Below are positions 20,932-51,145 of a DNA stretch of 64,000 nucleotides, in pieces. The first letter of the stretch is position 1. Every line of letters starts with the position of its first letter. Below the pieces are notes generated by a model. The model did not search any database, was not told the DNA's origin, and saw only the letters and a program-made list of their open reading frames with translations. The stretch is from the NCBI GenBank assembly GCA_009914755.4, contig CP068257.2, positions 31,904,001 to 31,968,000 of the forward strand, read 5' to 3'. The position numbers were made by a program, and so were the translations under genes. Origin of the DNA: the human T2T-CHM13v2.0 reference genome, Homo sapiens.

Positions 20932-21008
20932 ATGGCGACCAACATCGAGCAGATTTTTAGGTCTTTCGTGGTCAGTAAATTCCGGGAAATTCAACAGGAG
21001 CTTTCCAG
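20932..21008 (+). CDS. SON: SON exon 1 coding part (MATNIEQIFRSFVVSKFREIQQELS(S)); 5'UTR extends upstream to about 20.7 kb
   Basis: ATG at 20932. Donor TCC AG|gtaaac at 21009. Links in frame to exon 2 (AG|T = Ser). Confidence 0.85.
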
Positions 21009-27315: not shown

Positions 27316-30300
27316 ACTTGAAAGAGGGCTCCAGAAAAAGTAGATGCGTATCTGTACAAACAGATCCTACTGATGAAATTCCCACTAAAAAGTCAAAGAA
27401 GCATAAAAAGCACAAAAACAAAAAGAAGAAAAAGAAGAAAGAAAAGGAAAAAAAATATAAAAGACAGCCAGAAGAATCTGAGTCAAAGACGAAATCTCAT
27501 GATGATGGGAACATAGATTTAGAATCTGATTCCTTTTTAAAGTTTGATTCTGAACCTTCAGCTGTGGCGCTGGAGCTTCCTACAAGAGCATTTGGCCCAT
27601 CTGAGACCAATGAATCCCCTGCAGTTGTGCTAGAACCTCCTGTAGTATCAATGGAGGTATCAGAGCCACACATCTTAGAAACTCTGAAGCCAGCTACAAA
27701 AACTGCAGAACTGTCAGTTGTATCTACATCAGTAATCTCAGAGCAGTCAGAGCAGTCTGTGGCAGTAATGCCAGAACCATCCATGACAAAGATTCTGGAT
27801 TCCTTTGCAGCAGCACCAGTGCCTACTACAACACTGGTGTTGAAGTCATCTGAGCCAGTTGTAACAATGTCAGTGGAGTATCAGATGAAGTCTGTGCTGA
27901 AATCTGTGGAGAGCACATCTCCAGAGCCATCAAAGATCATGTTGGTAGAGCCCCCAGTAGCAAAAGTGTTAGAGCCTTCAGAAACCCTTGTGGTATCATC
28001 AGAGACACCTACTGAGGTGTACCCTGAGCCAAGCACATCAACAACAATGGATTTTCCAGAGTCATCTGCAATTGAAGCGCTAAGATTGCCAGAGCAGCCT
28101 GTAGACGTACCATCGGAGATTGCAGATTCATCCATGACAAGACCGCAGGAGTTGCCGGAGCTGCCTAAGACCACAGCGTTGGAGCTGCAGGAGTCGTCGG
28201 TGGCCTCAGCGATGGAGTTGCCGGGGCCACCTGCGACCTCCATGCCGGAGTTGCAGGGGCCCCCTGTGACTCCAGTGCTGGAGTTACCTGGGCCCTCTGC
28301 TACCCCGGTGCCAGAGTTGCCAGGGCCCCTTTCTACCCCAGTGCCTGAGTTGCCAGGGCCCCCTGCGACAGCAGTGCCTGAGTTGCCAGGGCCCTCTGTG
28401 ACACCAGTGCCACAGTTGTCGCAGGAATTGCCAGGGCTTCCAGCACCATCCATGGGGTTGGAGCCACCACAGGAGGTACCAGAGCCACCTGTGATGGCAC
28501 AGGAGTTGCCAGGGCTGCCTTTGGTGACAGCAGCAGTAGAGTTGCCAGAGCAGCCTGCGGTAACAGTAGCAATGGAGTTGACCGAACAACCTGTGACGAC
28601 GACAGAGTTGGAGCAGCCTGTGGGGATGACAACGGTGGAACATCCTGGGCATCCTGAGGTGACAACGGCAACAGGGTTGCTGGGGCAGCCTGAGGCAACG
28701 ATGGTGCTGGAGTTGCCAGGACAGCCAGTGGCAACGACAGCGCTGGAGTTGCCGGGGCAGCCTTCGGTGACTGGGGTGCCAGAGTTGCCAGGGCTGCCTT
28801 CGGCAACTAGGGCACTGGAGTTGTCGGGGCAGCCTGTGGCAACTGGGGCACTAGAGTTGCCTGGGCCGCTCATGGCAGCTGGGGCACTGGAGTTCTCGGG
28901 GCAGTCTGGGGCAGCTGGAGCACTGGAGCTTTTGGGGCAGCCTCTGGCAACAGGGGTGCTGGAGTTGCCAGGGCAGCCTGGGGCGCCAGAGTTGCCTGGG
29001 CAGCCTGTGGCAACTGTGGCGCTGGAGATCTCTGTTCAGTCTGTGGTGACAACATCGGAGCTGTCAACGATGACCGTGTCGCAGTCCCTGGAGGTGCCCT
29101 CGACGACAGCGCTGGAATCCTATAATACGGTAGCACAGGAGCTGCCTACTACATTAGTGGGGGAGACTTCTGTAACAGTAGGAGTGGATCCCTTGATGGC
29201 CCCAGAATCCCATATATTAGCTTCTAACACCATGGAGACCCATATATTAGCATCCAACACCATGGACTCCCAAATGCTAGCGTCCAACACCATGGACTCC
29301 CAGATGCTAGCATCCAACACCATGGACTCCCAGATGTTAGCGTCTAGCACCATGGACTCCCAGATGTTAGCAACTAGCTCCATGGACTCCCAGATGTTAG
29401 CAACTAGCTCCATGGACTCCCAGATGTTAGCAACTAGCACTATGGACTCCCAGATGTTAGCAACCAGTTCCATGGACTCCCAGATGTTAGCAACCAGCTC
29501 CATGGACTCCCAGATGTTAGCAACCAGCTCCATGGACTCCCAGATGTTAGCAACCAGCTCCATGGACTCCCAGATGTTAGCAACCAGCACCATGGATTCT
29601 CAGATGTTAGCAACCAGCACCATGGACTCCCAGATGTTAGCAACTAGCTCAATGGATTCCCAGATGTTAGCATCTGGCACTATGGACTCTCAAATGTTAG
29701 CTTCTGGCACCATGGATGCTCAGATGTTAGCGTCTGGTACCATGGATGCCCAGATGTTAGCGTCTAGTACCCAAGATTCTGCTATGTTGGGTTCAAAATC
29801 TCCTGATCCCTATAGGTTAGCTCAGGATCCTTACAGGTTAGCTCAGGATCCCTATAGGTTGGGCCATGACCCCTATAGATTAGGTCATGATGCTTACAGG
29901 TTAGGACAAGACCCTTATAGATTAGGCCATGATCCCTACAGACTAACTCCTGATCCCTATAGGATGTCACCTAGACCCTACAGGATAGCACCCAGGTCCT
30001 ATAGAATAGCACCCAGGCCATATAGGTTAGCACCTAGACCCCTGATGTTAGCATCTAGACGTTCTATGATGATGTCCTATGCTGCAGAACGTTCCATGAT
30101 GTCATCTTACGAACGCTCTATGATGTCTTATGAGCGGTCTATGATGTCCCCTATGGCTGAACGCTCTATGATGTCAGCCTACGAGCGCTCTATGATGTCA
30201 GCCTACGAGCGCTCTATGATGTCCCCTATGGCTGAGCGCTCTATGATGTCAGCTTATGAACGCTCCATGATGTCAGCTTATGAACGCTCCATGATGTCCC

Positions 30301-33231
30301 CAATGGCTGATCGATCTATGATGTCCATGGGTGCTGACCGGTCTATGATGTCGTCATACTCTGCTGCTGACCGGTCTATGATGTCATCGTACTCTGCAGC
30401 TGACCGATCTATGATGTCATCTTATACTGCTGATCGTTCAATGATGTCTATGGCTGCTGATTCTTACACCGATTCTTACACTGACACATATACAGAGGCA
30501 TATATGGTGCCACCTTTGCCTCCTGAAGAGCCCCCAACAATGCCACCGTTGCCACCTGAGGAGCCACCAATGACACCACCATTGCCTCCTGAGGAACCAC
30601 CAGAGGGTCCAGCATTGCCCACTGAGCAGTCAGCATTAACAGCTGAAAATACTTGGCCTACAGAGGTGCCATCATTACCATCTGAAGAGTCTGTATCGCA
30701 GCCTGAGCCTCCTGTGAGTCAAAGTGAGATTTCGGAGCCTTCAGCAGTGCCTACTGATTATTCAGTGTCAGCATCAGATCCCTCAGTTTTAGTATCAGAG
30801 GCTGCTGTGACTGTTCCAGAACCACCACCAGAGCCAGAATCTTCAATTACGTTAACACCTGTAGAGTCTGCAGTAGTAGCAGAAGAACATGAAGTTGTTC
30901 CAGAGAGACCAGTGACTTGTATGGTATCTGAAACTCCCGCCATGTCAGCTGAACCAACTGTGTTAGCATCAGAGCCTCCTGTTATGTCAGAGACAGCAGA
31001 AACATTTGATTCCATGAGAGCCTCAGGACATGTTGCCTCAGAAGTATCTACATCCTTGTTGGTTCCAGCAGTAACTACTCCAGTGCTGGCAGAGAGCATT
31101 CTGGAGCCGCCAGCCATGGCTGCCCCAGAGTCTTCAGCTATGGCTGTCCTGGAGTCTTCGGCTGTGACCGTCCTGGAGTCTTCGACTGTGACTGTCCTGG
31201 AGTCTTCGACTGTAACTGTCCTGGAGCCTTCGGTTGTGACTGTCCCGGAGCCTCCTGTTGTGGCTGAGCCAGACTATGTTACCATTCCTGTGCCAGTTGT
31301 TTCTGCGCTGGAGCCTTCTGTGCCTGTTCTGGAACCAGCGGTGTCAGTCCTTCAACCTTCTATGATTGTTTCAGAACCATCTGTTTCTGTCCAGGAATCG
31401 ACTGTGACAGTTTCAGAGCCTGCTGTCACAGTCTCAGAGCAGACTCAAGTAATACCAACTGAGGTGGCTATAGAGTCCACACCAATGATACTGGAATCTA
31501 GTATCATGTCATCACATGTTATGAAAGGAATTAATCTATCCTCTGGTGATCAAAATCTTGCTCCAGAGATTGGCATGCAGGAGATTGCATTGCATTCAGG
31601 TGAAGAACCACATGCTGAGGAACACCTGAAAGGTGACTTTTACGAAAGTGAACATGGTATAAATATAGACCTTAATATAAATAATCATTTAATTGCTAAA
31701 GAGATGGAACATAATACAGTGTGTGCTGCTGGTACTAGTCCTGTTGGGGAAATTGGTGAAGAGAAAATTTTGCCCACCAGTGAGACTAAACAGCGCACAG
31801 TATTGGATACCTACCCTGGTGTTAGTGAAGCTGATGCAGGAGAAACTCTATCTTCTACTGGTCCTTTTGCTCTGGAACCTGATGCAACAGGAACTAGTAA
31901 GGGTATTGAATTTACCACAGCATCTACTCTCAGTTTAGTTAATAAATATGATGTTGATTTATCTTTAACTACTCAAGATACTGAACATGACATGGTAATT
32001 TCCACCAGTCCTAGTGGTGGTAGTGAAGCTGACATTGAAGGGCCTTTGCCTGCTAAAGATATTCATCTTGATTTACCATCTAATAATAACCTTGTTAGTA
32101 AGGATACAGAAGAACCATTACCTGTAAAAGAGAGTGACCAGACATTAGCAGCTCTGCTCAGCCCTAAAGAAAGTAGTGGAGGAGAAAAAGAAGTACCTCC
32201 CCCTCCTAAAGAGACACTGCCTGATTCAGGATTTTCTGCCAATATTGAGGATATTAATGAAGCAGATTTAGTGAGACCGTTACTTCCTAAGGACATGGAA
32301 CGTCTTACAAGCCTTAGAGCTGGCATTGAAGGACCTTTACTTGCAAGTGATGTTGGACGTGACAGATCTGCTGCCAGCCCGGTTGTAAGTAGTATGCCAG
32401 AAAGAGCTTCAGAGTCTTCTTCAGAGGAAAAAGATGATTATGAAATTTTTGTAAAAGTTAAGGACACTCACGAAAAAAGCAAGAAAAATAAGAACCGTGA
32501 TAAGGGGGAGAAAGAGAAGAAAAGAGACTCTTCATTAAGATCTCGAAGTAAGCGTTCCAAATCTTCTGAACACAAATCACGCAAGCGTACCAGTGAATCT
32601 CGTTCTAGGGCAAGAAAGAGATCATCTAAGTCCAAGTCTCATCGCTCTCAGACACGTTCACGGTCACGTTCAAGACGCAGGAGGAGAAGCAGCAGATCAA
32701 GATCAAAGTCTAGAGGAAGAAGATCTGTATCAAAAGAGAAGCGCAAAAGATCTCCAAAGCACAGATCCAAGTCTAGGGAAAGAAAAAGAAAAAGATCAAG
32801 CTCCAGGGATAACCGAAAGACAGTTAGAGCTCGAAGTCGAACCCCAAGTCGTCGGAGTCGGAGTCATACTCCAAGTCGTCGACGAAGGTCTAGATCTGTG
32901 GGTAGAAGAAGGAGCTTTAGCATTTCCCCAAGCCGCCGCAGCCGCACCCCCAGCCGCCGCAGCCGCACCCCCAGCCGCCGCAGCCGCACCCCCAGCCGCC
33001 GCAGCCGCACCCCCAGCCGCCGGAGCCGCACCCCTAGCCGTCGGAGCCGCACCCCAAGCCGCCGGAGAAGATCAAGGTCTGTGGTAAGAAGACGAAGCTT
33101 CAGTATCTCACCAGTCAGATTAAGGCGATCAAGAACACCCTTAAGAAGAAGGTTTAGCAGATCTCCCATCCGTCGTAAAAGATCCAGGTCTTCTGAACGA
33201 GGCAGATCACCCAAACGTCTGACAGATTTGG
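27316..33231 (+). CDS. SON: SON exon 3, giant 5916-nt exon (about 1972 codons) with all SON-specific tandem peptide repeats and the RS domain
   Basis: ORF 27318..33245(+). Acceptor ttttag| at 27314-15, donor TTG G|gtgagt at 33232. The repeat arrays (MDSQMLATSS, DPYRLAQ, ERSMMS, PSRRSRT) are diagnostic of SON. Confidence 0.95.
29215..29765 (+). repeat. SON: In-frame 30-nt tandem coding repeats in SON exon 3 (MDSQMLA(T/S)S(S/T) x about 18); several copies are 100% identical at DNA level
   Basis: Direct reading of the sequence: ccatggactcccagatgttagcaaccagct units are repeated. Confidence 0.9.
29800..30450 (+). repeat. SON: Further in-frame SON exon-3 tandem repeats: 21-nt DPYRLAQ-type (29800-30060) and ERSMMS(A/P)Y-type (30060-30450)
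   Basis: The ORF translation shows the periodic peptides. The DNA units are near-identical. Confidence 0.85.
32924..33075 (+). repeat. SON: SON RS-domain 21-nt perfect tandem repeat (cccagccgccgcagccgcacc x about 6, PSRRSRT)
   Basis: There are identical 21-mers and the region is GC-rich. Confidence 0.9.
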
Positions 33232-34995: not shown

Positions 34996-35156
34996 ATAAG
35001 GCTCAATTACTTGAAATAGCCAAAGCTAATGCAGCTGCCATGTGTGCTAAGGCTGGTGTCCCTTTACCACCAAACCTAAAGCCTGCACCTCCACCTACTA
35101 TAGAAGAGAAAGTTGCTAAAAAGTCAGGAGGAGCTACTATAGAAGAACTAACTGAG
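34996..35156 (+). CDS. SON: SON exon 4 ((D)KAQLLEIAKANAAAMCAKAGVPLPPNLKPAPPPTIEEKVAKKSGGATIEELTE)
   Basis: ORF 34935..35165(+). Acceptor cttacag| at 34994-95, donor GAG|gtaagc at 35157. Frame links from exon 3. Confidence 0.9.
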
Positions 35157-35221
35157 GTAAGCTAGACAGAATTTGTTTTCATTCTTAAATGGATTATTCC
35201 AGTGATGTTGACTCTGGAGCG

Positions 35222-35714
35222 TGCCAAAACCCGAATTGTGGGCAGAACTGATAATGGCTGGCACCGAGTGGCCAAAACCCGAAATACAGATGTGGCAGCG
35301 GCAGAAGCTCTGTTTAGCAGGCCATTATCCGGGATGGCTAAGCTCCGCTAGCTAAAAGTTACTTCCCATTACTTTTGCTTTCCAGTTTTAGAAGCCAAAC
35401 TGACTGAGGAGTGGGACGGTTCGTTTGAATGGAGGAGGTGTTGAGTGAGCAACACGCAGAAGCTCGCCTACAGTTTCGTTTCCATTCACGACGCGTTCAC
35501 TGATCGCCACGAGTATACTGCATATACGCAAAGACACAGACAATCTTCAGAAATGATCTTTTGCCACCGGAGCTTGGAAATTAATAAGAATAGCTGGCCA
35601 TTGCCTGAAAGGAACTTCTTTCGCATCAACATTTCGGGTTTTGGCTGTTTGGTACCAGCCATTGGCGATAATGGCCGGCCATTATCAGTTCTTCCTGCGG
35701 TTCGGGTTTTGGCA
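35222..35714. other. Anomalous 493-bp CpG-retaining element with about 44-bp imperfect terminal inverted repeats, subterminal direct/inverted repeats and an internal 20-bp perfect palindrome (MITE- or transposon-end-like; origin undetermined)
   Basis: Left end is tgccaaaacccgaa at 35222-35235 and right end is ttcgggttttggca at 35701-35714, a perfect 14-bp TIR. An inner arm aactgataatggc (35246-58) pairs with gccattatcagtt (35679-91). The gccaaaacccgaa motif is repeated at 35271-83 and, inverted, at 35633-45. A palindrome gataatggccggccattatc lies at 35665-35684. There are about 25 CpGs in 493 bp (obs/exp about 0.9), against about 1 CpG per 280 bp in the flanking intron. Confidence 0.6.
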
Positions 35715-36759
35715 GTAACATATATATTTTAAACACACTTATTTTTGTTTTTAAAAGTTTGATCTTTTCAATTGAGGCTTTTTTGGGGCTTTGTTTTATT
35801 ACTATTTTTTTGGTGTGGGTGGATGGGGGGAGATGCTAAAATATTGCTGCTAGGATCCAGAAATACCACACTGTTTCATATATTGGAACTTGTTATTGGC
35901 TAGCCTTATGCCAGCCTGCCACTGTCAATATATTCTGTTCCCCTTGGTTACAAGCTTAATATACTCTTGTGTTTTTGGCGAAATGAGCTTTTTATCCTAT
36001 TGTAATATTTTCAATTGATAATAGATGTCATTAAATCTACTGCTTGTATAGAGACAGGTGTACCCAAATTTACTCTTGACCTTTTTATAAAGCCAGGTAA
36101 TGGAGTCTGTTCCTTTGCATCTCAGGAAGGAATTGACTTTGCTTTATGTATCAGACCTCATCAATTGCACCCTCTCCATCATGCCTTATTTTCCTAAGTT
36201 CTCCTTAAAGAAACTCAACCCACAAAACATTTATGGAGAGACATGTTGCTATCTAATCCTGTTGCAAATATTTCAGATCTTTTGTTTTGCCATACATCTG
36301 GGAAAATGTAAAGCTTCTGAATCTGTTTCCTCACTTAGATTTATTACAATATGAATTACAACTTTTTTTAAAAAATTAAGGACCTTGTAAACGCTTCTAT
36401 TGCTTATTTACCTAATCCAAGCTCCTTATCCAAAATGCTAAGGACAGTTAGTATTTTGCTGTTTTCGGCCCCATCTTCAGCCTTCTTGTCCCAAGTTTCT
36501 TCTCACCTTTTTACCACCACCTGACTAGGATGACTTCTCCTTTCCCTACCAGTCTTTGTTCTTTACTATGAAAATCTGGCTTAGAACTCTTCAAGGAATA
36601 TTCCTTGATTCTCTAACTCTGCCTGACTATTCTCTCTTAAGCCTTTGTTCTTTTAGCACTTATGTACTCAGTTTGTATTATATCAGTTTGCACTTGTTAT
36701 TGTGTTGCTCTGTAAAAGTGTTCAATTATTTCATGTATATGTATTCCTTCTCTTGTACT

Positions 36760-37069: not shown

Positions 37070-37216
37070 AAATGTAAACAGATCGCACAGAGTAAAGAAG
37101 ATGATGATGTAATAGTGAATAAACCTCATGTTTCGGATGAAGAGGAAGAAGAACCTCCTTTTTATCATCATCCCTTTAAACTCAGTGAACCCAAACCTAT
37201 TTTTTTCAATCTGAAT
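37070..37216 (+). CDS. SON: SON exon 5 (KCKQIAQSKEDDDVIVNKPHVSDEEEEEPPFYHHPFKLSEPKPIFFNLN)
   Basis: ORF 37052..37336(+). Acceptor cttttaaag| at 37068-69, donor AAT|gtgagt at 37217. 147 nt. Confidence 0.9.
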
Positions 37217-37426: not shown

Positions 37427-37615
37427 ATTGCTGCAGCAAAACCAACTCCACCAAAAAGCCAGGTAACATTAACAAAAGAATTCCCTGTATCATCTGGATC
37501 TCAACATCGGAAAAAAGAAGCGGATAGTGTTTATGGAGAATGGGTTCCTGTGGAGAAAAATGGTGAAGAAAACAAAGATGATGATAATGTTTTCAGCAGC
37601 AATTTGCCCTCAGAG
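37427..37615 (+). CDS. SON: SON exon 6 (IAAAKPTPPKSQVTLTKEFPVSSGSQHRKKEADSVYGEWVPVEKNGEENKDDDNVFSSNLPSE)
   Basis: Acceptor ttttttag| at 37425-26, donor GAG|gtaagt at 37616. 189 nt, in frame. Confidence 0.9.
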
Positions 37616-37715
37616 GTAAGTAGGAGGAATATTATGTATTTTTCCTTTTTTATACCTGAATCTGCCATTTCATTGTTATGTTATGTCTGATTTGGATTCT
37701 GTTTCACTCTTCTTA

Positions 37716-37995
37716 GGGCCGGGTTAAACGGCAGGGCCGGGTTAGACGACAGATGAAACAACCCGCAGCTTCTCATTTGACAGTAACTCGATGCAATTCA
37801 CTTTGTGGAACCAAGCCACAAAGTGAAAAGCATCGAATTGCAGAGAACAGTGTTATCACATCCCTACCCAACATTGGGCCCTCCCTGCACTTGTGGGAAG
37901 GTAGTCCAAGGTACAACTATTTAGCTTCCCGATTTGCTTCAAGGCTCTATAGCTCTAGATTTTGGTGGTAGCAAATTTATCGGGTGGAGGGATTG
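37716..37995. other. Anomalous CpG-retaining segment about 280 bp long in SON intron 6, starting with an 18-nt tandem direct repeat (gggccgggttaaacggca / gggccgggttagacgaca)
   Basis: It begins right after a strong acceptor-like cactcttcttag at 37715-16. There are 10 CpGs in about 280 bp (obs/exp about 0.6). Hairpins are present: ctttgtgg-N7-ccacaaag at about 37800-37822 and cccgatttgc..gcaaatttatcggg at about 37928-37984. ORF-track ORF 37753..37971(+) is 72 aa with no recognisable family. Confidence 0.45.
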
Positions 37996-40900
37996 ATCGG
38001 AGAGGGCAGATCCTCAGGTTCAACACAAGAACTGGATTGGAAAAGGTCATTGTAGGTTGATGTGAGCATCTTGGGTACATAGCCCATTGCCCTTAATGAT
38101 GGTTTCTTACTGTTTCTCTGGGTTGTTTGTCAGATAGCCTTTAATTTTAATTATTTTTCCTTCCCTTTGCTACCTTGGCCCTTTTAAATTCTTGTGTTTA
38201 ACCTAATGCTCAGCCTTGGTACTCCATTCCCTTCTCCTTCCCCTCTTTGCTACTATTAAAAGTCGGAGAAGTGGAATTCAAACGTTGAAATTTCCACGGG
38301 GCTATAGTTGTATCTTAATAATGCCAAGTGTCAAAACAACCCCATTAAAATGCCGCCTGATTAAATAATGTGCTGCTAAATATAGTGCACATGAAAACAG
38401 CAAGACTGTATATATATGTAAATATATATATATATCTGTATCTTTGTATGTATCTCTGTATCTGTACCTTTGCTGTATCTTTTAATAAACAGTTTACTTT
38501 TATTTAACTTGTTGTGCAAAATCACGCTTGGGGGATGTGGGAGGGTGGAGTCTTAATAGGGGGGTGGGAGTTTTAATTACTATAGATTAGTTGTCATCGC
38601 CTCTTGCCCTTGGTTTCCAAAGCCCAGACTTTTGCCAAGGACTGGACTAGGTATCTGATGCCCATCTGGACATTTTTCTTGCAGTTCTTGGATATGTAGA
38701 TCAGAGACACCTGTACTCTTCACTGTAGGTTCCCTTCCTTGGCTTGGCCATATCATCATCTTCCAGTAAACACCTCCAATTCTACAAATAAATCCTGTTT
38801 ATAAAATCAGAAAGTGAACAGAACCCAAATCAGAAACTTTTTGATAGCAGTACTTTTCTCCCCAAGCTATTCACAGCTGACATTTTCACTTTTTTTTTGT
38901 TTGTTTGACCTGCAGCATTTTGAGAGAACAAGTTCTGTACAATGAAGCTGGACATGATAACTAGCCAGTGCAACTTACAGTTACTGGTGATAATCTGTAT
39001 TCCCATGGGATTCAACAAGTGAAGCAAGTTATGCCATCACCAGTTAAGAGGGAGATAGTTGGTTTGGATAATATTTTAGTGAGACCATTTGAGTTGTTAA
39101 TCCCCCAATCAGGCTACCTGCATATCTCAAGAGAGAAAGGTTAACTGACATGTGCAGCTGACTTAATCTTCTTGTAGTAGCTGAATAGAAACCATGATAA
39201 GAGGGTTGAACAGGCTTACTTAGAAATCCTAATATGTATGCTTTTAGTAATTTCCTGCAGTTTAAGCATTTAAAAAAGAGTTGGAAAAAAAAATAGGTAG
39301 GGAGAGAGTCTGTATGACAAATATTTTCCACTGAAGACTTAACAAATATTGCAGAATTCCAAGGGATCTTCCTGAGAAGATAAGTGAGCATAACTGTTTT
39401 GAATTTCTTCGGTTCAATCATGGGGAAAGTGCTTAGTAACTCCTGATGCTTACACTTTTTTGAGAGAGAGAGAGTGTGTGTGTGCGTCTATTTATTTGAA
39501 ATTTAGTACTCAGCCATTTTCAATCTTAACACTGAGTGTGGTGCCTTAGCCTTGTTTGTCATCAAAAGTTGTCAGATTTTAATTAAAGGTTGAGGAGAAT
39601 TATTCTTAAATCTGGTGGGAAAAGTTGATAGAGAAAGGTACTCAAATAATGGTGACATTATTTTTTGTTAAAAAAATTTTTTTTCTTACCAAAGAAGAAT
39701 CCTAGAAGGTAAAATTATTTTACAATTCTTTTCAAAGGGCTAAATGAATAAAGCAGATGATGTCTCTTGTGGGACGATATATGTAACTATTTGATATAAA
39801 ACCTCTTTAAGCTGCTTAGAAGATTAGACTCAAAAGAACATACAGATTAATTCTAAAGAAGAGAATCCCAAAATACAAGGGCAAAGAGGCAGGATTGCCT
39901 TTTGCTTTCATATCTGCACTTTTACCTGGCAATAATGTTAAAATGTGTAGAGGAAATAGTCACAATTTAAAATGTTTAGTTCCAGTTATTTAGTGACCAT
40001 CTAAATATACTATATTGTATATATAGAAGGTAAAAGTAATGAATTTATTATTTATACAATTAGTGTTATATATACCAATGTTGTGAAATACTTTTGGTAA
40101 CACTTCGTGGGAGCATTAACCCTTTTGATTCCTTGTTAGAGTTTGAAATAAAGGCTTCTAGAGTAAAAGGAGATAGTTCTTTTAAATGGTCAACCTTTGA
40201 ACTGAATAGTAATTTTTATCTATGCCTTTTTCATTTTAATAAATATAAATGGAGTTTGTGGTTCTTTGTTGTTGAGCATAAAACATTTAGGCAAAGATCA
40301 CAGATTTTATCTCCATAAGAGGGCTGAATTAGCTTTGCTGTAATCCCTAATCCCACCAATTGTCTTGCATATGAATGCTCTTTGACATGAGTATGAATGG
40401 ATAGACATTGTGGATGAAGCAGCATAAATTCATTTCTTATGGAAAAACAACTCATCAGACTGTGTGCGGTACTGCCATAGCATCGTCTTCATACTCAGAA
40501 ACCAGCCAGCATCATCCTCAGTAAGGAGTGACTACAGAACTTTGACTGTATTTGTGTGAATTTGATTTATAAACAATGAAATAAAATGTTGGAAAACTAA
40601 TATTTTAAAAATAGTCCTCAGGGGCATTAATTCTTGGTAATAAAGTTAGTAGAGGTTTATTGAGTAGAAGATTAGGATGTAATCTTTGACATAAGTGGAG
40701 TAGTAACTACTCAACTATTAGTGTGGAGTTTTCATGGATTTAGTATCAATCAAATGTTTTAGGGGTCCAGAGGTAGTATTGTTAAGGTCTAGTGAATGCT
40801 TAGATGTTAAGATCATCTTTATGTTAAGCAGTTTACTGGTTTGTATTTATCAAATCATATTTCCACATCCCAATGGAATTACAATTTTTTTAAATTTATA

Positions 40901-44996: not shown

Positions 44997-45107
44997 CCTG
45001 TGGACATCTCTACAGCAATGAGTGAACGGGCACTTGCTCAGAAAAGACTCAGTGAGAATGCATTTGATCTTGAAGCCATGAGCATGTTAAATAGAGCTCA
45101 GGAAAGG
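44997..45107 (+). CDS. SON: SON exon 7 (PVDISTAMSERALAQKRLSENAFDLEAMSMLNRAQER)
   Basis: ORF 45000..45188(+). Acceptor tttcttag| at 44995-96, donor AGG|gtatgt at 45108. 111 nt. Confidence 0.9.
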
Positions 45108-48150: not shown

Positions 48151-51145
48151 GAAAAATGAGACATTGGTTGCTTTGTGTATTTTAATCTTGTAACATTTAT
48201 TTCAATTTTGATAGCTTTATCTTTGTTGATCTTACTAACAAATTAATATGAAACATCATGTATACTCATTATGCCTGCCTTTTTTTGGGAAGTAGTTGCA
48301 CTGATGTGTATAGTGAGTACACAGTTAGATTCATTAAGAAATTACAATTTCTGCAGTTTGCTGAGGGTTGGTGTTAGAATAAAGGGTGAAAATGTATATA
48401 GCAAAATATTTTAAAGATTGGATTAATCTTGGACTTCTATATTATAGTTACTATGAAAGTGATTTATATAATATTTGAAAAAATGTCTTTCATCTTTGGA
48501 AGAACTATAAATGTACATCTATTTCTTTAGTTTTAATTCTTTAATACTATTTAGTCTTGAAGCTAAGTACTCAGCCAGTATTTCAGGAAGTTAGAAATAA
48601 AGCTTATGGGTGTTAAAATAGGCACATAATACAGAGTCATGTACACTGCTAGGTAGAAACTTCTGAATGTGCTTCCATTACAAAATTTTGGTCTTTATCT
48701 AATGATGTGCTGATCCATAATGTTTGTATACTTATAAATGTGTTAATAACTTAAATAACTTTTAAAAAGTGAATCTTTTACTGACTCAATTGGTTTTCCC
48801 CTAAAATAATTTCTTCTGGTATTTGCAGTCTTGTAGGCAGTTAACAGACTTTAATAACTTTAAAATGTTTAGTAGCACCTTGAAAAAAGGCTTCAACTTT
48901 ATATTTTATGTAAGATATACTTTGGGAAGCAAATTATTTTGATAAATTATGAGATAAAGATATGTTCAGACCAAATTTTAAATTATAGATAAAAGTAGCA
49001 CTTAAAGGAAAAGATTCATTTGTATAGAATTACTGAAGAATATTTGATGCTAGTATCAACTAAAAAAGAAACTTTTGAAAATTAAAAATGGGCCACAACA
49101 TGTAGAAGTCATTAGGCAGCTGAAAATTTAGGATGTATGATCCATGTTAAATATCACAAATATTGTCTACTCATTAAATGTTTAGTTGTGTTTAGAAAAC
49201 CTGTCAAACGATCATTTTGGCTCTTCTTTAGTATAGTCCAGCATCTGCCTTATGTGTTAAAAAACACATGGAATACCAACATCCTCCGTGTTCTTTTTAG
49301 TTTGTTGCAGTGTATTTTTAGATTACAAAAAAAGCAAAGTTTTATCAGTAGTCTCATTAATCAGTAAAACATTTAAAGTAGTTCGTTTAAAAGAAATTTT
49401 ATTTCTAGAATGGAATGATTTGGATGTGACCTGATAAATACAGTTTGTTATTGTGGTCTCATTAAATTAATCAGCTTTTTCACACTGGGGTAAAGAAACA
49501 GATGATGATACTAGGGAATGGAAACAAAATTGGAAACCTGGGTTATTTGGGGATTTATATTGTACTCTGCACAGTTGCCCTTTTTTTTAGGCGTGTTCCC
49601 TGGAAAAGAGGGACGGATGAACCTGGAAGTAAGTAAAAGACATTCTAGGTGTGTAGCATCAAGGCAGTTAATATCCAAGCATCAGCTTTCTCTTTATACA
49701 TCTACACTGCATGGCCTGCACCAAATAAGGAACTGAACCAGGGGTATGTTTTTACCTCCACAGCTGCCTCCTTCCATCAGAGCACCTTGATGAACTTAAT
49801 GTCTAGTCACACGTCATTGGCATGTTTTCTCCCCAGCATTTAATTACAAAGCTGGGAAACAAAAGATGATAGATACAGTTTTACTACTGCATACAAACAT
49901 TTCTTTTTTACATTCAGTATTAACTTATCAATATAGGAGATGTGCATACTATTTCCTGAGCTACTGAAGTTTTTTTACTCTCTCTGTTGATAAGTTAATG
50001 ACTTTTGCTATATTATATATTTATATATATATATATATATATTTGGTAAGAGAACATAAAAACCTAAAATTTAGTAACAAGGGGAAAATAAAGCATGATT
50101 TGGAGATATGTTTCAAATTTTTAAAAAATGACCATAAAGATCAACAGTACAACTTAATACTGTTTGCTATATGTACATGGATGCCCTTTAATAAGAGGCA
50201 TTGAATATTTCTTAACCTGTAAAAATAACTGTTGACCATGCTAATGTATATATACTTGTGCATCTTAGGACATTAAGTGGTTTGCTGCTTTGATGGAAAT
50301 TATGGTTCAGTGGGTTGGATACAAGAGAGATGACTGTTCACAGAATAACCTGTGAACTTTCACCCCTCTGTATGGAAACTTGTTTCAGGGCCAAATCCTT
50401 GTAGCTGTCTTCTTGCCCCGGTCAGTGCCAGCCGTACTATTCACAACACTGCTGCTACCGAGGCCTAGGTATGTAAACATTTAAGGAGTTTTTTAAAAGT
50501 CTTTTAACATCAAGCTAGGTTTTAAAAGAATTCAAATTCATTTTGGCATACTTACAGGATATTTTATGTGATTGTTTTCTATTTGTTACTGTGTAAATTT
50601 CAAGAGTTTTTTTTTTTTTTTCTGCTTTAGGGATTTTCTAAGTAAAATATTTATACTTGCTTTATAGTAGAATGGGGAAGAAAACTTTGGATGACAACAG
50701 TATGCTTCTTCAGTGTCTAAACTATTTCTAAGTGATTTCTGGGCTTTATTCATAAACTAGGTACACCTGGGACAATTAATATCATTGATTGTTTTAACAT
50801 TGCCTTCTTTTTATTTTGCAAGCTAAGAAGAGATACCAGTGAACCTAAATAGTGGACGAAAACAGGAGTGTTCTAATTTTTTTTTTTTGAGGGGGGCACG
50901 AGGGCTACTGTTTCAAAACTGCCATTTACTTGTCTTATTTGACTTCCAAAATACTATTACGTTAATGTGCAAATAATCAGAACATACACACTACAGTATG
51001 TATAAAGTATAGAGGAATTTACATTTAATTGCTATAACAGATCTAGAAGTAAAGTAAGATTCCTCTTTTTAGAAAGTAAACAATGAATCTGTCACCAAGT
51101 TCTAACTGTAAAATGGGGACATTTTACCTTTCTTTCTTTGGATAG

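What the first reader, a model, noticed from the sequence alone, without database searches (positions are those of the whole stretch)
37716..37995. Second CpG-retaining segment in SON intron 6, starting with an 18-nt tandem repeat directly behind a strong cryptic 3' splice site
- About 280 bp carry 10 CpGs (obs/exp about 0.6) in an otherwise CpG-poor intron.
- It opens with the tandem pair gggccgggttaaacggca / gggccgggttagacgaca. This pair is placed immediately after a polypyrimidine-AG acceptor-like site (ttctgtttcactcttcttag at 37715-16), only 100 bp downstream of the exon-6 donor.
- Read as an exon from that acceptor, the SON frame stays open for 73 codons. It begins GRVKRQGRVRRQ, two tandem dibasic R-X-K/R-R motifs, then hits a stop.
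- The nearest GT donors (37901 and 37911) would give 184- or 194-nt exons that shift the frame. So it could act as a cryptic or poison exon, or as a structured intronic element.
- It also contains clean hairpins: ctttgtgg-N7-ccacaaag, and cccgat..ttgc/gcaa..atcggg.
- Together with the intron-4 element it brackets exons 5-6, and both lie just downstream of 5' splice sites. This is the kind of placement seen for intronic splicing regulators or for engineered insertions.
Basis: partly seen in the sequence, partly recalled or inferred. Interest (0 to 1): 0.55.

Follow-up and report, generated by a model that had tools for sequence, protein, structure and literature searches.

The report
Known SON alternative last exon (E7a)
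The flagged segment is not a cryptic or engineered element but the start of an already described alternative final exon of the human SON gene, which produces the shortened "SON B" protein and is almost unchanged across mammals.

Summary
The interpretation needs revising. The AG at 37715-16 is the real 3' splice site of SON alternative exon "E7a". Exon 6 (ending at 37615) joined to 37717 gives an 84-codon tail and a TAG at 37969-71. The exon then runs about 540 nt as 3' UTR to a textbook poly(A) site (AATAAA at 38484-89, eight UGUA upstream, GU/G-rich downstream). A published SON-B qPCR primer spans this exon 6 to 37717 junction. The spliced CDS is 2303 aa, against 2426 aa for full-length SON. 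The alternative tail replaces the G-patch and dsRNA-binding domains. The segment is present in six other non-primate mammal contig sets, with a 199-nt exact match to one of them. That excludes an engineered insertion and explains the CpG retention, since 8 of the 9 CpGs are invariant. The last 29 codons vary only at synonymous sites, the pattern of a translated, constrained peptide. The first 56 codons show no synonymous change at all, which points to an added nucleotide-level constraint. The poison-exon reading is disfavoured. The exon was not detected in frog or sauropsid loci. Verdict: already known, low interest.

The parts
37427..37615 (+). SON constitutive exon 6 (63 codons, ends in phase 0). 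Its donor GT at 37616-17 is shared by the E7a and exon 7 splicing choices.
   Evidence: Translation IAAAKPT...NLPSE. The published primer's 5' part, CAGAG, matches the exon end.
37616..37716 (+). 101-nt intron '6a'. It holds a candidate branch site CTGAT (A at 37690), a pyrimidine tract at 37697-37714 and the acceptor AG at 37715-16.
   Evidence: Sequence. It is 85-94% identical in the other mammals, against roughly 52-76% in ordinary intron. 37686-37716 is invariant apart from one base in one taxon.
37717..37971 (+). Coding part of alternative terminal exon E7a: 84 codons (GRVKRQGRVRRQMKQPAASHL...SRFWW) plus TAG at 37969-71. This is the SON B-specific C-terminus.
   Evidence: Exons 1-6 plus this segment give 2303 aa. 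The ORF length and stop are identical in every contig set that covers them. There are 4 non-synonymous and 9 synonymous variable sites.
37715..37752 (+). 18-nt tandem duplication (AGGGCCGGGTTAAACGGC / AGGGCCGGGTTAGACGAC). It encodes GRVKRQ/GRVRRQ and forms four G-triplets (G3N2G3N10G3N2G3, 37716-37741) straddling the splice junction.
   Evidence: It is invariant in all taxa except G/A at 37745.
37686..37884 (+). Near-ultraconserved core: a 199-nt exact match to a non-primate mammal. It spans the branch site, the acceptor and the first 56 codons, which show no synonymous substitution in any taxon.
   Evidence: exact-match blocks; 0 of 56 codons versus 9 of 29 codons with synonymous variation, Fisher p = 2.4e-5.
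37785..37839 (+). Imperfect hairpin with 24-nt arms, a 7-nt loop and a 12-bp perfect tip (CACTTTGTGG / CCACAAAGTG).
   Evidence: (I2) and the folds. The only changes are in the loop (37811) and at the stem base (37838). There are no compensatory pairs.
37972..38510 (+). E7a 3' UTR. The end is approximate, inferred from the poly(A) signal.
   Evidence: 85-96% identity to the other mammals with indels, so conservation drops at the stop codon.
38384..38548 (+). Poly(A) site module: 8 UGUA motifs at 38384-38483, AATAAA at 38484-38489, and GU-rich (38510-17) and G-rich (38531-48) downstream elements.
   Evidence: UGUA background is 0.68 per 100 nt (maximum 2). The block is identical in taxa A and D; the exact match to L001 runs 38422-38536.

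Best explanation
The segment is the 5' part of SON alternative terminal exon E7a, about 0.8 kb long (37717 to about 38510).

Mechanism:
- After exon 6, the spliceosome can pair the exon 6 donor (37616) with either of two acceptors. One is the proximal acceptor at 37716, across a 101-nt intron. The other is the exon 7 acceptor, 7.4 kb downstream.
- Proximal use, followed by cleavage and polyadenylation at the AATAAA at 38484, gives the SON B mRNA.
- SON B protein (2303 aa) keeps the repeats and the RS region. It replaces the last 207 residues, which contain the G-patch and the dsRNA-binding motif, with a conserved 84-residue basic tail.

Shown here: the anatomy, the reading frame, the conservation and the published junction primer.

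Inferred:
- the exact cleavage site;
- that the extra nucleotide-level constraint on the first ~170 nt plus the acceptor region reflects splicing or polyadenylation control elements (G-runs, hairpin) that set the SON F to SON B ratio.

CpG retention is a by-product of purifying selection, not a sign of foreign origin.
For: - PMC8455679 describes twelve constitutive SON exons plus alternative exons E5a and E7a, specific to SON E and SON B.
- Its SON-B reverse primer 'Exon7a', reverse-complemented, reads CAGAG+GGCGCGGGTTAAAC. The predicted junction is CAGAG|GGCCGGGTTAAAC, that is 37611-15 joined to 37717-29. The two differ by one extra base in the stored text.
- The spliced CDS is 2303 aa with E7a and 2426 aa with exons 7-12.
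- The replaced tail carries G-patch (E = 6e-18) and dsRBD (E = 9e-10) domains.
- The 84-codon ORF and TAG are conserved in every mammal contig set that covers them.
- All 9 variable sites in 37885-37962 are synonymous, including 6 downstream of the putative donors.
- The conserved AATAAA has 8 upstream UGUA motifs and GU/G-rich downstream elements.
- Conservation runs at 99-100% over 37700-37900, against 52-80% in ordinary intron.
Against: - No RNA-seq junction or 3'-end data could be consulted, so usage rests on one paper's primer table and figure legend.
- The primer text differs from the genome by one inserted base.
- The original description (Kim et al. 2016, Mol Cell) was not held in the library.
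- An exact-sequence look-up of the 2303-aa product found nothing. The canonical 2426-aa protein was also absent, so that test is uninformative.
- No assembled transcript with the exon 6-E7a junction appeared among the protein hits.
Confidence: 0.9

Rival explanations
1. Frame-shifting cassette ('poison') exon. 37717-37900 or 37717-37910 is spliced on to exon 7, which creates a premature stop and NMD, as for the ultraconserved poison exons of SR-protein genes.
For: - Near-ultraconservation in a splicing-factor gene.
- GT dinucleotides at 37901 and 37911 are conserved.
- Both exon lengths (184 and 194 nt) shift the frame.
Against: - Both donors are weak. They read AAG|GTAGTC and AAG|GTACAA, with no +5 G and 6 of 9 matches to consensus. 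Position +5 of the first varies (T/C).
- The 6 variable sites between 37914 and 37962, beyond both donors, are all synonymous. The stop at 37969 is conserved, so selection acts on translation through to the TAG.
- A strong conserved poly(A) site follows.
- A better poison-exon candidate lies elsewhere in the gene, at 50389-50468.
Confidence: 0.07
2. A structured RNA (or DNA) regulatory element overlaps the exon start. The G-run cluster, a possible G-quadruplex, and the 24-nt-arm hairpin act as a switch controlling use of the proximal acceptor and poly(A) site, possibly under SON autoregulation. This is compatible with the main explanation rather than exclusive of it.
For: - The first 56 codons show zero synonymous changes, against 9 in the last 29 codons (p = 2.4e-5).
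- Fold z-scores are -4.1 and -4.7.
- Three of the four core substitutions fall in unpaired positions of the consensus fold.
- The sister exon E5a lies in a published conserved, edited dsRNA for which autoregulation was proposed.
Against: - None of the 108 predicted pairs shows a compensatory change, and the covariation term is +1.38. There is too little variation to test.
- Both strands fold equally well, as any inverted repeat would.
- There is no Rfam match.
- The 3-of-4 unpaired observation is post hoc and weak.
Confidence: 0.3
3. Engineered or foreign insertion (a recombinase target, vector remnant or spike-in) that, with the intron-4 element, brackets exons 5-6.
Against: - The same sequence sits at the orthologous position in independent assemblies of six other non-primate mammal contig sets.
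- There was no significant plasmid match.
- Matches to loxP, FRT, rox, phiC31 and Bxb1 att sequences, which I recalled from memory, were chance matches of 12 nt or less.
Confidence: 0.01
4. A copy of a known interspersed repeat family that happens to retain CpGs.
For: - The exon was not detected in frog or sauropsid SON loci, so it arose later and could be derived from a transposable element.
- A weak sub-threshold Rfam hit in the 3' UTR (SMAD5-AS1_2, 25 bits against a gathering score of 50) might reflect a shared old repeat.
Against: - It is single-copy in the 64-kb window apart from the TA-rich stretch.
- It has no terminal repeats.
- Its conservation far exceeds that of neutral repeats.
- No repeat library was available to test this properly.
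Confidence: 0.1

Closest known systems
SON alternative exon E7a / isoform SON B (Ahn laboratory; RefSeq isoform B by my recollection)
   Same: - Position after exon 6.
- The junction sequence matches the published SON-B primer.
- The product is 2303 aa.
- The G-patch and dsRBD are lost.
   Different: Nothing structural. This report adds that the exon start is near-ultraconserved at synonymous sites and that the poly(A) module is invariant in the mammals sampled.
SON alternative exon E5a and its conserved edited dsRNA (bioRxiv 10.1101/2025.01.24.634786)
   Same: - It is the sister alternative terminal exon in the same gene.
- It is also CpG-retaining and 98-99% conserved.
- It also truncates SON before the RNA-binding domains.
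   Different: - E5a is embedded in 40-nt-arm inverted repeats that form a ~180-bp duplex between intron and 3' UTR. E7a has only a 24-nt-arm hairpin.
- E5a adds about 1 codon. E7a adds a conserved 84-residue tail.
Ultraconserved poison exons of SR-protein and hnRNP genes (Lareau 2007, Ni 2007)
   Same: It is an extremely conserved alternative exon inside a splicing-regulator gene that lowers output of the full-length factor.
   Different: - It is a terminal exon with its own poly(A) site, and its stop codon lies in the last exon, so NMD is not predicted.
- The peptide itself is under purifying selection.
Intronic polyadenylation / alternative last exon isoforms (for example IgM secreted versus membrane)
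   Same: - It involves competition between a proximal 3' splice site plus poly(A) site and a distal splice acceptor.
- It has UGUA-AAUAAA-GU/G-rich architecture.
   Different: It is a skipped-terminal-exon type with a very short (101-nt) upstream intron and unusually deep sequence conservation.

Membership tests
Alternative terminal exon (SON E7a) | A functional 3' splice site joined to the upstream constitutive exon | tested here: met
   A branch-site-like CTGAT, a 16/18 pyrimidine tract and the AG are conserved. The published junction-spanning primer matches 37615|37717.
Alternative terminal exon (SON E7a) | An in-frame ORF that ends inside the exon | tested here: met
   84 codons plus TAG, conserved in length in every contig set that covers them. 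The product is 2303 aa.
Alternative terminal exon (SON E7a) | Its own cleavage and polyadenylation signal | tested here: met
   AATAAA at 38484-89, 8 UGUA motifs upstream and GU/G-rich elements downstream, invariant in taxa A and D. The cleavage site itself was not observed.
Alternative terminal exon (SON E7a) | Transcripts that end there are observed in cells | not testable with these tools
   Only indirect evidence: the qPCR assay for SON B in PMC8455679. No RNA-seq or 3'-seq data were available.
NMD poison cassette exon | A usable 5' splice site at the exon's 3' end | tested here: inconclusive
   The GTs at 37901 and 37911 are conserved, but both sites match the consensus at only 6 of 9 positions and lack the +5 G.
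NMD poison cassette exon | No protein-level constraint on the exon sequence | tested here: not met
   All 9 variable sites in 37885-37962 are synonymous, including 6 beyond the putative donors.
Bejerano-type ultraconserved element | At least 200 bp identical between human, mouse and rat | tested here: inconclusive
   The longest exact run is 199 nt (37686-37884), against one unidentified non-primate mammal. Runs against the other taxa I checked (B and C) are 65-139 nt. The species identities are unknown.
Long conserved dsRNA / ADAR substrate | An extended duplex of about 100 bp or more | tested here: not met
   The longest local duplex is a 24-nt-arm hairpin, 88% paired. There is no long reverse-complement alignment across 37600-38650.
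Rfam RNA family | A score at or above a family's gathering threshold | tested here: not met
   There were 0 hits at gathering threshold in the window, and only sub-threshold chance-level hits locally.
Engineered recombinase / att site insertion | Sequence absent from unmodified genomes, with a match to a known site or vector | tested here: not met
   It is present in six other mammal contig sets. There is no vector or site match.

The most novel reading that the evidence does not exclude
The 199-nt invariant block (branch site, acceptor, G-run tandem repeat, hairpin and the first 56 codons) is an RNA-level switch layered on the coding sequence. Candidates are an hnRNP H/F-bound G-run or G-quadruplex cluster at the splice junction together with the hairpin. 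The switch would set the SON F to SON B ratio and may be read by full-length SON itself, as has been proposed for the E5a dsRNA.
Probability: 0.25. Interest if true: 0.45.

Novelty: already known. Interest (0 to 1): 0.15.

Why it matters
It matters mainly as a correct annotation. A scan should not flag this as a cryptic site or an engineered insertion. SON dosage and isoform balance are clinically relevant: SON haploinsufficiency causes ZTTK syndrome (my own knowledge), and short isoforms are upregulated in leukaemia (the latter as cited in PMC8455679). The split constraint seen here therefore gives a concrete, mutable target region for anyone studying how the SON F to SON B choice is regulated: the tail end of the exon is constrained as protein, while the exon start is constrained at the nucleotide level.

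Tried and rejected
- **Rfam.** The whole window at gathering threshold and the local region at E ≤ 10 gave nothing meaningful.
- **Plasmid similarity.** Searches for both CpG-retaining elements returned only chance 26-29-nt matches.
- **Long inverted repeat.** A search for one centred near 38110 found only a 27-nt patch.
- **Metagenome scan.** A scan with a 54-nt invariant pattern gave 0 hits.
- **Exact protein look-up.** Neither reconstructed SON B nor SON F is in the collection, so the test is uninformative.
- **Original paper.** Kim et al. 2016 (PMC4799497) is not held.
- **Pfam.** The 84-aa tail matched no family.
- **Bacterial promoter and terminator scan.** Irrelevant to this locus and empty.
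- **Naming the comparison species.** I searched for lineage-specific SINEs (B1, B2, Bov-tA, CanSINE, PRE-1, Alu), using consensus sequences from memory, and found none (one search timed out). The taxa remain "non-primate mammals", inferred from about 70% neutral-intron identity and the lack of the human Alus.
- **Frog and sauropsid loci.** blastn and nhmmer found only the SON exons, with no homologue of E7a.
- **Covariation.** The alignment has no power: 0 compensatory pairs.

Full report
**What is in the sequence**

The window carries the human-type SON gene. The ATG is at 20932, and the giant exon 3 runs 27316-33231. Exons 4-6 are at 34996-35156, 37070-37216 and 37427-37615. Exon 7 starts at 44997 and the stop codon is at 54262-64. 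Published human SON primers match the window exactly, and Alu elements are present.

The finding lies 101 nt into intron 6. Most of its descriptive claims hold.
- An 18-nt tandem pair sits at 37715-37752.
- A pyrimidine tract and AG end at 37716.
- There are GT dinucleotides at 37901 and 37911.
- A hairpin is present that actually has 24-nt arms, 37785-37808 / 37816-37839.
- The fold z-scores are -4.1 on the + strand and -4.7 on the - strand.

Two numbers need correcting. There are 9 CpGs (obs/exp 0.55), not 10. That is still far above the rest of intron 6, which has obs/exp 0.19 and a mean of 1.5 CpG per 280 nt. The SON frame stays open for 84 codons, to a TAG at 37969-71, not 73.

**It is natural and extremely conserved**

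A protein search with exon 6 plus the read-through peptide found an ORF (P0001) that had been called on contigs of another species. Fetching that ORF and other exon 6-containing contigs gave six further mammal contig sets:
- A: L001-L010
- B: L011-L016
- C: L025-L027
- D: L028
- E: L029-L034
- F: L035

Against L001, ordinary SON intron is 52-80% identical and coding exons are 95-98% identical. By contrast, 37700-37900 is 99-100% identical, 37900-38500 is 90-100%, and the intron-4 element (35200-35700) is 98-99%. The longest exact match is 199 nt, at 37686-37884.

L001 lacks the human Alus and contains no Alu sequence, so it is not a primate. I could not name the species.

Eight of the nine CpGs are invariant in all sequences. 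CpG retention is therefore a consequence of purifying selection.

An engineered or foreign origin is excluded. In addition, no plasmid similarity and no lox, FRT, rox or att-like site was found.

**It is the known alternative exon E7a**

PMC8455679 (Fig. 1a legend) states that SON has twelve constitutive exons and two alternative exons. E5a is specific to SON E and E7a is specific to SON B.

The paper's supplementary primer 'R-SON Exon7a (SON B)' is GTTTAACCCGCGCCCTCTG. Its reverse complement, CAGAG-GGCGCGGGTTAAAC, is the last five bases of exon 6 followed by the first bases after the 37716 AG. The predicted junction is CAGAG|GGCCGGGTTAAAC, so the stored text carries one extra base.

The 'Exon5a' primer likewise joins the end of exon 4 to 35387, inside the intron-4 element.

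Splicing exons 1-6 to 37717 gives a 2303-aa product, and exons 1-12 give 2426 aa. From my own knowledge, these are the lengths of SON isoforms B and F.

The 207 residues that E7a replaces contain the G-patch (E = 6e-18) and a dsRNA-binding domain (E = 9e-10).

**It is a terminal exon, not a poison cassette**

Downstream of the stop codon, conservation drops to 85-96% with indels. It then returns to identity over 38364-38536. That stretch holds eight UGUA motifs within 100 nt (background 0.68 per 100 nt, maximum 2). It also holds an AATAAA at 38484-89, a GU-rich tract and a G-rich tract. This is the canonical anatomy of a strong poly(A) site, which places the exon end near 38510.

They match the consensus at 6 of 9 positions and have no +5 G, and position +5 of the first site varies.

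The substitution pattern is the more decisive evidence. The 255-nt coding part has 13 variable sites among eight sequences.
- The nine sites in 37885-37962 are all synonymous.
- Six of those nine lie beyond both putative donors.
- The stop codon is conserved.

Selection has therefore acted on translation right through to the TAG.

**An extra layer of constraint**

The first 56 codons (37717-37884) show four variable sites. All four are non-synonymous, so there are no synonymous changes, against nine in the last 29 codons (Fisher p = 2.4e-5). Together with the invariant 30 nt of upstream intron, this indicates a nucleotide-level constraint on the exon start.

Candidate elements are visible in the sequence.
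- Four G-triplets (G3N2G3N10G3N2G3, 37716-37741) are created by the tandem repeat and straddle the splice junction.
- The hairpin lies at 37785-37839.

A consensus fold predicts 108 pairs, but none shows a compensatory change. There is simply too little variation to test it. That these elements regulate the choice between E7a and exon 7 is inference.

**Evolutionary depth**

blastn and nhmmer found the SON exons but no counterpart of E7a in a frog locus (L017, Hymenochirus). They also found none in two probable sauropsid loci (L018, L022), the second of which spans the whole of intron 6. The exon therefore appears to be a mammalian acquisition. Its origin, including a possible transposable-element source, could not be tested.

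**Verdict**

It is wrong on 'cryptic', on 'poison' and on 'engineered'.

The feature is already known: SON B exon E7a. The only modest addition here is the split selection pattern and the invariant poly(A) module. Interest is low.

Noticed in passing
window 35200-35720 (intron 4): The 'intron-4 element' is the other described alternative terminal exon, E5a. Its acceptor AG is at 35384-85, and the published SON-E primer joins the exon 4 end to 35387. It is embedded in 40-41-nt inverted repeats (35222-35262 / 35674-35714 and 35253-35292 / 35624-35663). It is 98-99% identical to a non-primate mammal. By approximate coordinate mapping (editing site chr21:33557388 maps to about window 35227), it appears to be the conserved, brain-edited ~180-bp SON dsRNA reported in bioRxiv 10.1101/2025.01.24.634786. 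Spliced from 35386, it adds a single codon before the stop, predicting a 2108-aa product.
   Followed up: partly
window 50316-50494 (intron 8); L017 29847-30023 and 33992-34168: This block is conserved to frog at 79%, better than the neighbouring coding exons (74-75%). It has a conserved acceptor (AG 50387-88) and donor (GT 50469-70) that delimit an 80-nt cassette-like exon (78 nt in frog). A conserved inverted repeat (TGTTCACAG..CTGTGAACT) lies just upstream. It is a better candidate than E7a for an ancient regulated or poison exon of SON. The frog locus carries the exon 8 / block / exon 9 unit twice, which is either a duplication or an assembly artefact.
   Followed up: partly
window 38315/38316 (E7a 3' UTR): The window lacks 16 nt (TGTCAAAATGACGCGG) that are present in the non-primate mammal sequences covering this point (taxon sets A, B and D).
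   Followed up: no
window 37932 and 37981: The window alone has A at 37932 and C at 37981. Together they make the cccgat/atcggg helix around the stop codon perfect. All other taxa have T and T, giving G.U plus a U.U mismatch. The C also creates the only non-conserved CpG of the segment.
   Followed up: no
window 38205-38330: There is a sub-threshold Rfam match to SMAD5-AS1 conserved region 2 (25.3 bits against a gathering score of 50, E = 0.0012) inside the E7a 3' UTR. It could be chance or a shared ancient repeat.
   Followed up: no
proteins P0013, P0017-P0020, P0023 (loci L018-L021): In a group of probable bird contigs, the reading frame continues from exon 6 straight into the intron. It gives a conserved basic tail (EVRKGRKAYHIRKPKPLPGQS...), which might be an analogous short-isoform ending produced by intron read-through.
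   Followed up: no
protein P0004 (Logan contig, 950 nt): This contig from another mammal has exons 4, 5 and 6 already spliced together, yet it reads on into intron 6a (…SLPSEVSRRNTTCLL). That suggests transcripts which retain the 101-nt intron upstream of E7a.
   Followed up: no
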